From a virus (lineage: Duplodnaviria; Heunggongvirae; Uroviricota; Caudoviricetes), in the IMG/VR virus record IMGVR_UViG_2913182230_000001, positions 1 through 42,074 of that record: a DNA stretch of 42,074 bases; one strand, 5' to 3'. Within the stretch, counting starts at the first letter, position 1; each line of letters starts with the position of its first letter. Of the stretch, positions 15,001 through 21,000 are shown one piece after another. Made by a program: the position numbers.

Positions 15001-18000
15001 AATCTGACGTAAAAACCTTCAATTATACGGCTCACCTGTGGGATATCCGGTGGCTAAGACATCGTGCGAGGAAAACAAGGTGATTGACCCAAATCGAAGT
15101 TACGAACAAGAAAGCGTCGAGCAGGCTTTAACGTGCGCTAACTGCGGTCAGAAGCTGCATGTGCTGGAAGTTCACGTGTGTGAGTACTGCTGCGCAGAAC
15201 TGATGAGCGATCCGAATAGCTCGATGCACGAGGAAGAAGACGATGGCTAAACCAGCGCGAAGACGATGTAAAAACGATGAATGTCGGGAATGGTTTCACC
15301 CTGCATTCGCTAATCAGTGGTGGTGCTCTCCAGAGTGTGGAACCAAGATAGCACTCGAACGACGAAGCAAAGAACGCGAAAAAGCGGAAAAAGCAGCAGA
15401 GAAGAAACGACGACGAGAGGAGCAGAAACAGAAAGATAAAATTAAGATTCGAAAACTCGCCTTAAAGCCCCGCAGTTACTGGATTAAACAAGCCCAACAA
15501 GCCGTAAACGCCTTCATCAGAGAAAGAGACCGCGACTTACCATGTATCTCGTGCGGAACGCTCACGTCTGCTCAGTGGGATGCCGGGCATTACCGGACAA
15601 CTGCTGCGGCACCTCAACTCCGATTTGATGAACGCAATATTCACAAGCAATGCGTGGTGTGCAACCAGCACAAAAGCGGAAATCTCGTTCCGTATCGCGT
15701 CGAACTGATTAATCGCATTGGGCAGGAAGCAGTAGACGAAATCGAATCAAACCATAACCGCCATCGCTGGACTGTCGAAGAGTGCAGGGCCATCAAGGCG
15801 GAGTATCAGCAGAAACTTAAAAATCTGCGAAACAGCAGAAGTGAGGCAGCATGAATATCTACGAAAGAATTGATGGCAGCAAATACCGAAATATTTGGGT
15901 AGCTGGCGACCTGCACGGATGCTACACGAACCTGATAAACAAACTGGATACGATTGGATTCGACACCAAAAAAGACCTGCTTATCTCGGTTGGCGATTTG
16001 GTTGATCGTGGTGCAGAGAACGTTGAATGCCTGGAATTAATCACATTCCCCTGGTTCAGAGCTGTACGTGGAAACCATGAGCACATGATGATTGATGGCT
16101 TATCAGAGCGTGGAAACGTCAATCACTGGCTGCTTAATGGCGGTGGCTGGTTCTTTAATCTCGATTACGACAAAGAAATTCTGGCTAAAGCTCTTGCCCA
16201 TAAAGCAGATGAACTTCCGTTAATCATCGAACTGGTGAGCAAAGATAAAAAATATGTCATCTGCCACGCCGATTATCCTTGTGACGAATACGAGTTTGGA
16301 AAGCCAGTTGATCATCAGCAGGTAATCTGGAACCGCGAACGAATCAGCAACTCACAAGACGGGATCGTGAAAGAAATCAAAGGCGCGGACACGTTCATCT
16401 TTGGTCATACGCCAGTAGTGAAACCACTTAAATTTGCCAACCAGATGTATATCGATACCGGCGCAGTGTTCTGCGGAAACCTCACATTGATTCAGGTACA
16501 GGGAGAAGGCGCATGAGACTCGAAAGCGTAGCTAAATTTCATTCGCCAAAAAGCCCGATGATGAGCGACTCACCACGGGCTACAGCTTCTGACTCTCTTT
16601 CCGGTACTGATGTGATGGCTGCTATGGGGATGGCACAATCACAAGCCGGATTCGGAATGGCTGCATTCTGCGGTAAGCACGAACTCAGCCAGAACGACAA
16701 ACAAAAGGCTATCAACTATCTGATGCAATTTGCACACAAGGTATCGGGGAAATACCGTGGCGTTGCAAAGCTTGAAGGAAATACTAAGGCAAAGGTACTG
16801 CAAGTGCTCGCAACATTCGCTTATGCGGATTATTGCCGTAGTGCCGCGACGCCGGGAGCAAGATGCAGAGATTGCCACGGTACAGGCCGTGCGGTTGATA
16901 TAGCAAAAACAGAGCAGTGGGGGAGAGTTGTCGAGAAAGAGTGCGGAAGATGCAAAGGTGTCGGCTATTCAAGGATGCCAGCAAGCGCCGCATATCGCGC
17001 TGTAACGATGCTAATCCCAAACCTTACTCAACCCAACTGGTCACGCACTGTTAAGCCACTGTATGACGCTCTGGTGGTGCAATGCCACAAGGAAGAGTCA
17101 ATCGCAGACAACATTTTGAATTCAGTTACACGTTAACAGCATGATTGTCACGGATGGCAACATATTAACGGCATAATATTGACTTTTTGAATAAAGTTGG
17201 GTAAATTTGACCCAACGATGGATAAATGCACTCGTTAAATAAAGCCCTGAGTTAATAGCTCGGGGCTTTTTGCGTTTTAAACACGACATTTCTGAAAGCA
17301 CATCAAACCAAATACCAGACAGACAAAAATAATCACCTTATCCGCTGAGGCTACGGTGCGGTGTGCTTTGCATAAATGAAAACCAGCGCAATGGCTGGCT
17401 TCGTGAAAGCGGGTGGCAAGAGGCTGCGCTAACAACCTCATGCCGTTTTGCCCGTGCATATCGGTCACGAACAAATCTGATTACTAAACACAGTAGCCTG
17501 GATTTGTTCTATCAGTAATCGACCTTATTCCTAATTAAATAGAGCAAATCCCCTTATTGGGGGTAAGACATGAAGATGCCAGAAAAACATGACCTGTTAG
17601 CCGCCATTCTCGCGGCAAAGGAACAAGGCATCGGGGCAATCCTTGCGTTTGCAATGGCGTACCTTCGCGGAAGATATAATGGTGGTGCGTTTACAAAAAC
17701 AGTAATCGACGCAACGATGTGCGCCATTATCGCCTGGTTCATTCGTGACCTTCTCGACTTCGCCGGACTAAGTAGCAATCTCGCTTATATAACGAGCGTG
17801 TTTATCGGCTACATCGGTACTGACTCGATTGGTTCGCTTATCAAACGCTTCGCTGCTAAAAAAGCCGGAGTAGAAGATGGTGGAAATCAATAATCAACGT
17901 AAGGCGTTCCTCGATATGCTGGCGTGGTCAGAGGGAACTGATAACGGGCGTCAGGAAACCAGAAATCATGGTTATGACGTCATTGTTGGCGGAGAGCTAT

Positions 18001-21000
18001 TCACTGATTACTCCGATCACCCTCGCAAACTTGTCACGCTAAACCCCAAACTCAAATCAACAGCCGCCGGACGTTACCAGCTTCTTTCCCGTTGGTGGGA
18101 TGCCTACCGTAAGCAGCTTGGCCTGAAAGACTTCTCTCCGAAAAGCCAGGGCGCTGTGGCATTGCAGCAGATTAAGGAGCGTGGCGCTTTACCGATGATT
18201 GATCGCGGTGATATCCGTCAGGCAATCGACCGTTGCAGCAATATCTGGGCTTCACTGCCGGGGGCTGGTTATGGTCAGTTCGAGCATAAGGCTGACAGCC
18301 TGATTGCAAAATTCAAAGAGGCTGGCGGAACGATCAGAGAGATTGAGGTATGAGCAGAGTAACCGCGATTATCTCCGCTCTGGTTATTTGTATCATCGCC
18401 TGCCTGTCATGGGCTGTTAATCATTACCGTGATAACGCCATCGCCTACAAAGAGCAGCGCGATAAGGCCGCATCCATCATCGCTGACATGCAGAAGCGTC
18501 AACGTGATGTAGCAGAACTCGACGCCAGATACACAAAGGAGCTTGCTGATGCTAACGCGACTATCGAAAGTCTCCGTGCTGATGTTTCTGCTGGTCGTAA
18601 GCGCCTGCAAGTCGCCGCCACCTGTGCAAAGTCAACGACCGGAGCCAGCAGCATGGGCGATGGAGAAAGCCCAAGACTTACAGCAGATGCTGAACTCAAT
18701 TATTACCGTCTCCGAAGTGGAATCGACAAGATAACCGCGCAGGTTAACTACCTGCAGGAATACATCAGGACTCAGTGCCTTCGATGATAGCGATAATTTT
18801 ACTCATCCGCGTTCTCAGTCTTGCCATGGCGACACGTCTCCGGAAGATGGGTTATCAGGAGAAAGTGTTGTCCATTGTTTTCAAAGTGAAAAGCGCGGGA
18901 TTCCGACGACAGAAGCGCCAATTCCGACAATCCGATCACGGATTCCGACGGAGCGCCAAATCTGGCCGGAACAAATCGGAATTCGTGGTCGAATTAAATC
19001 GGAAAGTGCGATCGGATTACATCGGAATCAATGGTCGATTTGGGTCGGAATACGCAGCGTTGAGATAAGAGCCAGTTCATTACATAGCTATATCTAATGG
19101 AGCCTGAAATAATTTGTCATTGTCATGACAACAAAATTCATTAATGATGGGCTCTCATTATACGGGAGGTAGATATGGCATTTCGTTATTTTGAACTTAC
19201 AGAAAATATTCCTTTTGAGGATGCAAGAGAGCTTCACGTACAGTTCAAACACCACTTAGAACATGTTGTAAAGGCGTCATTTATGCCAGGAACACATGAA
19301 AAGCATTTAATTGTTGAAGGCCGGGATGACGAATCGATAACACAGATATTTGGTGGGCATGATGAAAAGTTTATACATCTTTATCACATCGATGAAATGA
19401 AAAACGTGAATACTTAATCTAACCTCCTACGGCTGTTTTTTATTGCCATTACAAAAGCCATTCCCTACAGAGTGGCTTTGATAATGGCTTATACCTTACA
19501 CGGGATAACTTAACTGATATCCCTTTTAACGGATAAACGGAGCACAAATAATGGCAAAGCTCACCGACAAACAAGAGCTGTTTGCCCGTGAGTACCTGAA
19601 AGATCTGAATGGAACACAGGCAGCTATCAGGGCGGGCTACAGCGAGAAGACCGCCAATGAGCAGGCATCTCGATTATTAGCAAATGTTAATGTTCAAAAA
19701 TTCGTTGCTGAACTTAAATCCGCCCGCGTTGAGCAGACGGGTATAGATGCCGCCTATGTTCTTCGTAGGTTGGTTGAAATCGACCAGATGGATGTGCTCG
19801 ACATTCTCCTGCAAAACGGTGAGCTAAAGCCCATTAAAGACTGGCCTAAGGTATGGCGCACAACGTTATCAGGAATGGATGTTGTGGAGATGGTATCCGC
19901 AGATAGTGCAGCACTCCTGAAGAAAATCAAATGGCCTGATAAGGTTAAAAACCTCGAACTTCTTGGTAAGCATGTTTCTGTTCAGGCGTTTAAAGACAAC
20001 GTCAAAAATGAAGTGACTGGCGCTGATGGAGGACCAGTCAGAACAGAAATTACCAACTTAACGCCAGAGCAGGCTGCAGAGGCGTATAGAAAAATGATGG
20101 GCTAAGTATGCCGTTACCATTCCCCTTCGATTTTAAACATCCTGATTACCAGATGGTTTTTGAATGGCGGATGGAACGCCTACAGCGCATTCGCCAGAAT
20201 CCTGAAATATTGCCCGTATTGAAGCAGTTTTACCGAACCAATCCGGCTCAGTTCATCATCGACTGGGGCATGACAACGGACCCGCGTAATATTGATTATG
20301 GCCTGCCGGTGACCATTCCGTTTTTACTCTTCCCTAAGCAGGAGGAGTGGATCCACTGGATTATGGAACGCTGGAGCAATCGGGAGAATGGTATTACCGA
20401 AAAATCCCGTGAAATGGGGCTCAGTTGGACCGCGATCGGACTGGCCTGCTCGCTTTGTCTCTTCAACAAAGAAATGGTTATCGGTTTCGGCTCCCGTAAA
20501 GAGGAATACGTCGACAGTACCGGTGACCCGAAAGCATTGTTCTGGAAGGCGCGCAAGTTCGTGGAAACAGTACCTGTAGAGTTTCGCGGTTCGTGGAGCG
20601 AGAAGAAGCACGCGCCATATATGCGTGTTGAGTTTCCTGAAACTGGTGCCGTTATCAAAGGCGAGGCTGGCGATAATATTGGTCGTGGTGACCGTACCAC
20701 GCTTTATCTGGTTGATGAGGCTGCATTCCTTCAGCGCCCTCTGCTGATTGATGCGGCGTTGTCACAAACGACGCGTTGCCGTATCGACCTGAGTTCAGTT
20801 AACGGCATGGCTAACCCGTTCGCTCAGAAGCGTCATGGCGGGAAGATACCGGTATTCACATTCCACTGGCGGGATGATCCTCGCAAGGATGAAGAGTGGT
20901 ATCGCAGGGAATGCGAGAAAATCGATAATCCGGTGGTGGTGGCACAGGAACTTGATCTGAACTACAGCGCATCAGCGGAAGGCGTCCTGATTCCATCCGA

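What the first reader, a model, noticed from the sequence alone, without database searches (positions are those of the whole stretch)
16513..18450. Mosaic junctions: lambda-type Q-pR'-S-R block between P22-type immunity and a Mu-like tail, with a breakpoint apparently inside Rz
Q, S and R translate to proteins matching lambda as I recall them, and the Rz N-terminal transmembrane segment matches lambda Rz before the rest diverges. The immunity region is P22-like and the virion module is contractile-tail type. A recombination junction inside a gene with a nested partner (Rz1) is unusual and constrains both products.
Basis: partly seen in the sequence, partly recalled or inferred. Interest (0 to 1): 0.4.

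Follow-up and report, generated by a model that had tools for sequence, protein, structure and literature searches.

The report
Ordinary HK97-type phage lysis cassette
The switch from lambda-like to P22-like sequence inside the phage lysis gene Rz is real, but it is an old junction shared with phage HK97 and hundreds of other phages, it lies upstream of the nested Rz1 gene, and so it is ordinary.

Summary
Q, S and R are 99%, 99% and 97% identical in protein to lambda. Nucleotide identity to lambda is about 96-97% up to Rz codon about 30, then falls to 55-78%. The crossover lies between window positions 18427 and 18442: 19 of 19 informative sites are lambda-type before it and 128 of 134 are P22-type after it.

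- The rest of Rz, and all of Rz1 (18549-18734), is the P22/HK97 allele. Rz matches HK97 at 141 of 145 residues and Rz1 at 58 of 61.
- The crossover lies 107-121 nt upstream of Rz1. The Rz periplasmic domain and its partner Rz1 were therefore inherited together, and no co-adaptation problem arises.
- HK97, HK544 and Sf101 are uniformly 92-100% identical across 16500-18790. The junction was inherited, not made in this prophage. The stretch spanning it is present in 57 phage records and 921 of 5,426 complete E. coli genomes.
- It falls in a conserved island at the 5' end of Rz that is shared by lambdoid phages with different endolysins and different spanin types.
- Immunity is P22-type.
- The tail is contractile but SEN34/vB_EcoM-611R5-type, not Mu-like.

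This is already known biology and of low interest.

The parts
14908..15854 (+). nin region (NinE, NinF, NinG). The lambda-like block begins at 14908, well to the left of the reported start.
   Evidence: 96.5% nt identity to lambda 42097-43043. NinG is 97% aa identical to lambda and hits Pfam NinG.
15851..16516 (+). NinI Ser/Thr phosphatase. ninH, which lies between ninG and ninI in lambda, is absent.
   Evidence: 95% aa identity to lambda NinI, with a Metallophos hit. Lambda 43044-43232 has no counterpart between 15854 and 15860.
16513..17136 (+). Q late-gene antiterminator
   Evidence: 99% aa identity to lambda Q and 97% to P22 gp23. Pfam Antiterm hit at 192 bits.
17179..17207 (+). pR' late promoter (TTGACT-17-TAAATT), with the qut region just downstream
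   Evidence: Promoter scan. The site lies within the stretch that is 96.5% identical to lambda up to 17236. The corresponding site is annotated as PR'/qut in HK544 and epsilon34.
17237..17398 (+). Non-lambda replacement segment. It takes the place of lambda 44610-45014 (the distal leader and orf-64) and contains the terminator that follows pR' at 17241-17269.
   Evidence: There is no lambda alignment here. HK97 is 88-94% identical and HK544 94-96%. P22 is 94% identical over 17250-17299 only. The terminator has a 13-bp stem followed by a T-run.
17570..17893 (+). S holin/antiholin with the dual start Met1-Lys2-Met3
   Evidence: 99% aa identity to lambda S. Pfam Phage_holin_3_1 hit.
17877..18353 (+). 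R endolysin, lambda type
   Evidence: 97% aa identity to lambda R. There is no counterpart in P22, which has the unrelated gene 19.
18350..18787 (+). Rz i-spanin, 145 aa. It has an N-terminal hydrophobic segment at residues ~5-23. It is a hybrid relative to lambda and identical in type to HK97 Rz.
   Evidence: Pfam Phage_lysis hit at 125 bits. It matches HK97 Rz at 141/145 residues, P22 gp15 at 128/145 and lambda Rz at 89/154.
18370..18465 (+). Conserved island at the 5' end of Rz, shared by lambdoid phages that have different endolysins upstream and different Rz/Rz1 types downstream. It is the likely substrate for homologous exchange.
   Evidence: Mean pairwise nt identity is 86-93% among 8 phages, against 20-51% upstream and 41-87% (mostly 60-75%) downstream. 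Many phage records match only query 151-266.
18428..18441 (+). Crossover interval between lambda-type and P22/HK97-type sequence (Rz codons 27-31)
   Evidence: The last lambda-specific site before the switch is 18427 and the first P22-specific site is 18442.
18549..18734 (+). Rz1 o-spanin lipoprotein, 61 aa. It is fully embedded in Rz in the +1 frame and has the lipobox VSAC with Cys20.
   Evidence: Pfam Rz1 hit at 72.6 bits. It matches HK97 Rz1 at 58/61 residues, P22 Rz1 at 57/61 and lambda Rz1 at 23/63. The frame offset is 1. Its coordinates correspond to the annotated Sf101 Rz1.
18808..19056 (-). Remnant of one end of an IS21-family element. It holds repeated ATTCCGA/TCGGAAT motifs and only about the first 9 codons of istA. 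It marks the right edge of the lysis cassette.
   Evidence: 96.1% identity to the region immediately upstream of, and into, istA in E. coli A28. Repeats are shown. The segment is absent from the related E. coli S1 prophage and from all phage records.
19551..20105 (+). Small terminase subunit, the first gene of the SEN34/611R5-type virion module
   Evidence: Pfam Terminase_2 and PHROG terminase small subunit hits. Nucleotide identity to vB_EcoM-611R5 (93.7-97.3% in three segments) begins at 19915, and the module is 82% identical to SEN34.

Best explanation
The region is a standard lambdoid late-control and lysis cassette of the HK97 type. It consists of Q, pR'/qut, a short terminated leader, the S holin, the lambda-type R endolysin, and an embedded two-component spanin.

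Relative to lambda, the spanin is a hybrid. Rz codons 1 to about 30 continue the lambda-like R segment. The rest of Rz, and all of the embedded Rz1, is the P22/HK97 allele.

The junction arose by homologous exchange within a roughly 100-nt island at the 5' end of Rz. This island is conserved among lambdoid phages whatever endolysin lies upstream and whatever spanin type lies downstream. Because it lies upstream of Rz1, an exchange there moves the Rz periplasmic domain and Rz1 as one co-adapted unit.

The exchange happened long before this prophage formed and was inherited with the whole cassette.

Shown here: the position of the breakpoint, its sharing with other phages, and the conserved island. 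Inferred: the mechanism (homologous recombination in the island) and the function of the proteins.
For: - Breakpoint. Informative sites read 19 lambda and 0 P22, then 6 lambda and 128 P22, switching between 18427 and 18442. Identity to lambda falls from 92-100% to 42-78% at about 18450. dS against lambda is 0.25 in codons 2-38 and at least 1.26 afterwards; dS against P22 goes the opposite way, 0.97 then 0.14.
- Inheritance. HK97, HK544 and Sf101 are 92-100% identical in every 50-nt bin from 16500 to 18790, with no drop in Rz. Rz matches HK97 at 141/145 residues and Rz1 at 58/61. The junction-spanning 591 nt is at least 80% covered in 57 phage records, including HK97, epsilon34, HK75 and Sf101, and in 921 of 5,426 E. 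coli genomes.
- Conserved island. Mean pairwise identity is 86-93% over 18370-18459 in 8 phages. These phages have four different upstream endolysin contexts and at least three downstream Rz types.
- Published classification. The lambda Rz i-spanin family has 83 members. Their o-spanin partners split into HK97 (32 members, including P22, Sf101, HK544 and epsilon34), lambda (28) and HK620 (14) families (PMC6139136).
- Family hits. Pfam matches Antiterm, Phage_holin_3_1, Phage_lysis and Rz1.
Against: - Nothing contradicts this explanation directly.
- The direction and age of the exchange cannot be read from these data. Lambda itself could be the recombinant.
- Conservation of the island could owe something to selection on the transmembrane segment as well as to repeated exchange.
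- No lysis function was tested.
- The IS21-family scar 20 nt after the Rz stop codon shows that this copy has been rearranged locally. Whether the prophage is still inducible is unknown.
Confidence: 0.9

Rival explanations
1. A recent, element-specific recombination. On this view the prophage itself was formed by a crossover between a lambda-like and a P22-like phage inside Rz, producing a new and possibly mismatched spanin pair.
For: The breakpoint relative to lambda is sharp. The exact 145-aa Rz protein is rare, seen on only 2 contigs.
Against: The same junction, at the same informative sites, is present in HK544, and HK97, HK544 and Sf101 show uniform identity across it. It is also present in 921 E. 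coli genomes. The rarity of the exact protein comes from a few point substitutions such as V17A. Rz1 and the Rz periplasmic domain come from the same lineage.
Confidence: 0.03
2. No recombination. On this view lambda-type and P22/HK97-type Rz diverged vertically, and the N-terminal transmembrane part was simply held constant by purifying selection while the periplasmic part evolved fast.
For: The conserved part encodes the membrane anchor, and the Rz proteins align over their whole length. The island is conserved in all 8 phages compared.
Against: Synonymous divergence also switches. dS against lambda is 0.25 and then at least 1.26; dS against P22 is 0.97 and then 0.14. The gene upstream (R) is 97% lambda and has no P22 homologue, while the sequence downstream is 94% P22. 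That is phylogenetic incongruence, not rate variation.
Confidence: 0.05
3. An assembly chimera or other artefact that joined reads from two prophages within a shared repeat.
For: The crossover lies in a stretch shared by several prophage types, and E. coli genomes have a median of 2 matching places each.
Against: The identical arrangement occurs in dozens of independently sequenced, finished phage genomes. The reading frames of Rz and Rz1 are intact. A 110-kb NCBI contig carries the same gene order.
Confidence: 0.01

Closest known systems
Phage HK97 late-control and lysis cassette (Q, S, R, Rz/Rz1). The same cassette is found in HK544, HK75, mEp213, Sf101 and epsilon34.
   Same: The gene order and allele types are the same. 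Nucleotide identity is 92-100% in every 50-nt bin from 16500 to 18790, across the point where lambda diverges. Rz matches at 141/145 residues and Rz1 at 58/61.
   Different: There are a few point substitutions, such as Rz V17A. The upstream nin genes differ: ninI is present here, while HK97 has roi, HNH and rusA genes. An IS21-family remnant replaces the sequence immediately after Rz.
Phage lambda Q-pR'-S-R-Rz/Rz1
   Same: NinE through Q and pR'/qut (14908-17236), and then S, R and Rz codons 1 to about 30 (17399-18440), are about 96-97% identical in nucleotides. The S dual start is the same.
   Different: ninH is absent. The lambda distal leader, tR' and orf-64 (lambda 44610-45014, 405 bp) are replaced by 162 bp that carry an early terminator. 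Rz codons 39-145 and Rz1 are a different allele, with 54/116 and 23/63 residues identical. Rz1 here has no second cysteine.
Phage P22 gene 15 / Rz1 spanin pair
   Same: Positions 18384-18778 are 94% identical in nucleotides to P22. The lengths match (145 aa and 61 aa), the embedded +1 architecture matches, and Rz1 is identical at 57/61 residues.
   Different: P22 has the unrelated gene 19 lysozyme upstream, and its first 11 Rz codons differ. Here the upstream partner is lambda-type R.
Salmonella phage SEN34 and Escherichia phage vB_EcoM-611R5 (lambdoid-organised temperate myoviruses)
   Same: The virion module 19915-39672 is about 97% identical in nucleotides to 611R5 and about 82% to SEN34. 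SEN34 was shown by electron microscopy to have a contractile tail while having lambda-like early genes.
   Different: The early regions differ. 611R5 encodes a DNA polymerase and a different Q, S and Rz. The tape measure is only 74% identical in protein, two extra low-GC genes lie at 35290-36449, and the tail-fibre tip is SfV-type.
Phage Mu / SfV 'Mu-like' tail
   Same: Both are contractile tails with a Baseplate_J-family protein. The tail-fibre assembly protein shares 55% identity over 58 aa with Mu and is 94% identical to SfV orf22.
   Different: The sheath, tube, tape measure, hub and wedge proteins give no tblastn hit in Mu or SfV at E <= 1e-4. The sheath is DUF3383 type and the tube is KPP10_Orf10 type.

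Membership tests
Embedded two-component spanin (lambda Rz i-spanin family with HK97-family o-spanin, Kongari et al. 2018) | The i-spanin has an N-terminal transmembrane segment followed by a periplasmic domain of the Rz family. | tested here: met
   Residues 5-23 ([19 protein letters not shown]) are hydrophobic. Pfam Phage_lysis scores 125 bits against a cut-off of 25.4. No dedicated TM predictor was run.
Embedded two-component spanin (lambda Rz i-spanin family with HK97-family o-spanin, Kongari et al. 2018) | The o-spanin gene lies wholly inside the i-spanin gene in the +1 frame. | tested here: met
   Rz1 at 18549-18734 lies inside Rz at 18350-18787. The offset is 199 nt, which gives frame +1.
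Embedded two-component spanin (lambda Rz i-spanin family with HK97-family o-spanin, Kongari et al. 2018) | The o-spanin is a lipoprotein with a lipobox cysteine, and it belongs to the HK97 o-spanin family rather than the lambda one. | tested here: met
   The signal peptide ends LVVSAC (Cys20) and is followed by Lys. Pfam Rz1 scores 72.6 bits against a cut-off of 27.9. Identity is 58/61 to HK97 Rz1 and 23/63 to lambda Rz1. Family lists are in PMC6139136.
Embedded two-component spanin (lambda Rz i-spanin family with HK97-family o-spanin, Kongari et al. 2018) | The pair is needed for outer-membrane disruption at the last step of lysis. | not testable with these tools
   This needs genetics, for example lysis in the presence of millimolar divalent cations.
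Lambda-type late control (Q antiterminator acting at pR'/qut) | A Q protein of the lambda family, and a pR' promoter with qut followed by a terminator that Q overrides. | tested here: met
   Q is 99% identical to lambda Q and hits Pfam Antiterm. The promoter TTGACT-17-TAAATT lies at 17179-17207 and a terminator at 17241-17269. Antitermination itself was not tested. The terminator is of the P22/HK97 type, not lambda tR'.
P22-type immunity | A repressor with the P22 C2 DNA-binding domain, and matching operators. | tested here: met
   C2 is 93% identical overall, with two substitutions (K16E, S54A) in the first ~68 residues. The OR region is identical at 77 of 81 positions. Cross-immunity was not tested.
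Mu-like tail (as in Mu and SfV) | Sheath, tube and baseplate proteins homologous to Mu gpL, gpM and gp44-48. | tested here: not met
   tblastn of every virion protein against the Mu and SfV genomes gave no hit at E <= 1e-4, except for the tail-fibre and chaperone proteins at the far end. The sheath is DUF3383 type and the tube is KPP10_Orf10 type. Only fold-level kinship common to all contractile tails remains possible.
SEN34-like temperate myovirus virion module | A colinear virion gene set similar to SEN34 and 611R5, with sheath, tube and baseplate genes. | tested here: met
   About 97% nt identity to vB_EcoM-611R5 and 81.7% to SEN34, covering 72-75% of 19000-42074. PHROG hits to tail sheath, tape measure and baseplate hub. 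SEN34 was shown to be contractile by EM (PMC5261728).

The most novel reading that the evidence does not exclude
The roughly 100-nt island at the 5' end of Rz (18370-18465) is kept nearly identical at the nucleotide level across lambdoid phages because it serves as a recombination linker. This would make [Rz periplasmic domain + Rz1] a freely exchangeable cassette behind any endolysin. On this reading its conservation exceeds what the transmembrane peptide requires. My data show the island and recurrent boundaries at its 3' edge. They cannot separate selection for a linker from frequent recent exchange combined with peptide constraint.
Probability: 0.15. Interest if true: 0.4.

Novelty: already known. 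Interest (0 to 1): 0.1.

Why it matters
It matters little beyond correct annotation.
- The spanin here should be named as the HK97/P22-type Rz/Rz1 pair, not lambda Rz.
- Rz1 (18549-18734) should be called as a gene.
- The tail should not be labelled Mu-like.

The case is a clean example of a general rule of lambdoid mosaicism. The junctions that survive lie where they do not separate interacting partners: here, upstream of the nested gene, at the boundary between the membrane anchor and the periplasmic domain.

Tried and rejected
- **Mu-likeness of the tail.** I ran tblastn of all virion proteins against the Mu and SfV genomes. There were no hits except the tail-fibre chaperone and fibre tip, so the label was rejected.
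- **Identity of the 80-aa ORF at 19175-19417.** From memory I guessed it was P22 orf80 (DUF2560). There was no P22 hit and no Pfam hit, only a PHROG of unknown function, so the guess was rejected.
- **The repeat array at 18880-19060.** I first considered a pac or terminase-binding site. It matched the end of an IS21-family element at 96% in one E. coli genome and matched no phage record, so it was reinterpreted as an IS scar.
- **Rate heterogeneity without recombination.** Rejected on synonymous divergence and on the incongruent flanks.
- **Junction created in this prophage.** Rejected because identity to HK97-type phages is uniform across it.
- **PADLOC and Pfam on the accessory ORFs** at 35290-36449 and 7514-9875. 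Neither library gave a hit for any of these ORFs.
- **One paper search** failed on a term that was too short.
- **The source organism** of assembly GCA_004212325.1 could not be looked up with these tools.

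
Full report
**Context**

The window is one prophage integrated at thrW.
- proA lies at 1-1254 (assigned from its 417-aa length and its position beside thrW, from my own knowledge; not searched), and tRNA-Thr(CGT) at 1369-1444.
- An integrase and excisionase follow; they are 98% and 96% identical in protein to those of SfV.
- Next come a P22-type early region, a nin region, the late-control and lysis cassette that is the subject of the finding, and about 20 kb of virion genes.
- At the right edge are an SfV-type tail-fibre tip, its chaperone and gtrV (98% aa).

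**Check of the observation**

Against lambda, the proteins are 99%, 99% and 97% identical for Q, S and R, but only 58% for Rz.

At the nucleotide level, lambda matches 14908-15854 and 15860-17236 at 96.5%. It matches 17399 onwards at 92-100% per 50-nt bin until about 18448. Identity then falls to 42-78% and further to about 55%.

In a window/lambda/P22 alignment, the sites inside Rz where lambda and P22 differ read 19 lambda-type in a row. After that, 128 of 134 are P22-type. The switch lies between 18427 and 18442, which is Rz codons 27-31 (Fisher p = 2e-19 for the best split).

Synonymous divergence behaves the same way.
- dS against lambda is 0.25 in Rz codons 2-38, comparable with R (0.15) and Q (0.14). 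It is at least 1.26 in codons 39-145.
- dS against P22 goes from 0.97 to 0.14.

The boundary is therefore real, sharp and far beyond chance. It is a change of ancestry, not only of protein constraint.

**What lies on the far side**

It is the P22 gene 15 type. Positions 18384-18778 are 94% identical to P22, and both genes have the P22 lengths of 145 and 61 codons.

Rz1 occupies 18549-18734 in the +1 frame. Its signal peptide ends in the lipobox VSAC, and it hits Pfam Rz1 at 72.6 bits. Rz hits Pfam Phage_lysis at 125 bits.

**Why the junction is not unusual**

HK97, HK544 and Sf101 are 92-100% identical to the window in every 50-nt bin from 16500 to 18790. None shows a dip where lambda diverges. 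Rz matches HK97 at 141 of 145 residues and Rz1 at 58 of 61; the epsilon34 and Sf101 pairs are equally close.

A 591-nt query spanning the end of R, the junction and all of Rz is at least 80% covered in 57 phage records. These include HK97, HK75, epsilon34, Sf101 and several mEp phages. It is also at least 80% covered in 921 of 5,426 complete E. coli genomes.

The published spanin census puts lambda, HK97, P22, Sf101, HK544 and epsilon34 in one i-spanin family of 83 members. It splits their o-spanins into HK97 (32 members), lambda (28) and HK620 (14) families (PMC6139136). The pair in this window is the HK97 pair. From my own knowledge, not checked here, the homology between P22 gene 15 and lambda Rz was reported with the P22 lysis-region sequence (GenBank J04356, which appears). 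HK97 was described in 2000 as a showcase of lambdoid mosaicism.

**Why it does not strain the nested pair**

The crossover interval, 18428-18441, is 107-121 nt upstream of the Rz1 start codon. Everything from Rz codon about 31 onwards, including the whole overlap, comes from one lineage. The Rz periplasmic domain and the Rz1 it must bind were therefore inherited together. Only the membrane anchor and the juxtamembrane residues continue the lambda-like segment.

**Likely mechanism (inferred)**

I aligned Rz plus 150 nt upstream from eight lambdoid phages: the window, lambda, P22, HK97, mEp460, ES18, SPN9CC and Ayreon.
- Mean pairwise identity is 86-93% over 18370-18459.
- Upstream it is 20-51%. 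Four different endolysin contexts lie there.
- Downstream it is mostly 60-75%. At least three Rz/Rz1 types lie there.

Many phage records match the window only over query positions 151-266, which is exactly this island. The island is therefore a shared stretch in which homologous exchange can reassort endolysins with spanin cassettes. Boundaries recur at its 3' edge. This is the classical picture of lambdoid module exchange at conserved boundary sequences.

**Other junctions in and around the block**

- Relative to lambda there is no junction at the start of Q. The lambda-like stretch starts at 14908 in ninE.
- ninH is missing between ninG and ninI.
- Lambda 44610-45014 (the distal leader, tR' and orf-64) is replaced by the 162 bp at 17237-17398. 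This segment is shared with HK97, HK544 and Sf101 and begins with a strong terminator at 17241-17269. The terminated pR' leader would therefore be much shorter than lambda's (the leader length is inferred).
- Identity to all lambdoid references ends at 18807, 20 nt after the Rz stop codon.
  - Positions 18808-19056 are 96% identical to the terminal region of an IS21-family element, upstream of and into istA, in E. coli A28.
  - They carry that end's repeated ATTCCGA/TCGGAAT motifs.
  - They retain only about nine istA codons.
  - A related E. coli S1 prophage has 110 unrelated bp there.
  - This is an insertion-plus-deletion scar, not a module boundary.
- The terminase genes start at 19551.

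**The flanks**

Immunity is P22-type. The repressor is 93% identical to C2, with two substitutions in the first ~68 residues, where the DNA-binding domain lies, and the OR region is identical at 77 of 81 positions.

The tail is contractile. The sheath belongs to PHROG 205 and DUF3383, the tube to KPP10_Orf10, and there are a baseplate hub and a Baseplate_J protein. It is not Mu-like in any sense testable here, because no virion protein finds Mu or SfV by tblastn.

The module is about 97% identical to Escherichia phage vB_EcoM-611R5 and about 82% to Salmonella phage SEN34. SEN34 is a published lambda-organised phage with myovirus morphology (PMC5261728).

**Verdict**

The observed identity boundary is confirmed. 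It is a recombination junction inside Rz, but an ancient and widely inherited one. It is placed where it does not separate Rz's periplasmic domain from Rz1, and it lies in a conserved island that is a common exchange point. The cassette is the known HK97-type lysis cassette. Nothing here would surprise a phage specialist, and interest is low.

Noticed in passing
window 18808-19056: This is a remnant of one end of an IS21-family element. It is 96% identical to the region upstream of istA in E. coli A28. It carries three ATTCCGA and three inverted TCGGAAT motifs and only about 9 codons of istA. It sits 20 nt after the Rz stop codon, inside the late operon. It was found in only 1 of 5,426 E. coli genomes and in no phage record.
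   Followed up: partly
window 15854-15860: ninH is absent. Lambda 43044-43232, and the equivalent gene in HK544 and Sf101, has no counterpart, so the ninG stop codon overlaps the ninI start codon directly.
   Followed up: partly
window 35290-36449: Two low-GC ORFs (0.42-0.45, against about 0.53 around them), of 243 and 142 aa, are inserted in the baseplate gene cluster. They are absent from vB_EcoM-611R5. Their PHROGs have unknown function and there is no Pfam or PADLOC hit. They may be a moron.
   Followed up: partly
window 39477-42074: The tail-fibre gene switches from 611R5-type to SfV orf21-type near 39937. It is followed by an SfV-type fibre assembly gene (94% aa) and gtrV (98% aa). With the SfV-like integrase at thrW, this looks like a serotype-converting prophage on a SEN34-type virion. 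No complete E. coli genome, and none of the top-listed phage records, covers this junction.
   Followed up: partly
window 30833-32842: The tape-measure protein is only 74% identical to that of vB_EcoM-611R5, while the flanking virion proteins are 97-100% identical. Nucleotide identity is lost over 31901-32275. This is a mosaic patch inside the virion module.
   Followed up: no
window 7514-9875 (- strand): Four early-left ORFs, of 322, 156, 114 and 101 aa, lie to the left of (leftward-transcriptionally downstream of) the C2 repressor gene. They have no Pfam or PADLOC hit, and the two larger ones that were searched fall in PHROGs of unknown function. This is the usual position for superinfection-exclusion genes.
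   Followed up: no
window 18350-18787; locus L013: The exact 145-aa Rz protein is recorded on only two contigs. One is NCBI assembly GCA_004212325.1, contig RHJR01000019.1 (110 kb), which has the same gene order and is probably the source genome. The best identity in complete E. coli genomes is 97.6%.
   Followed up: partly
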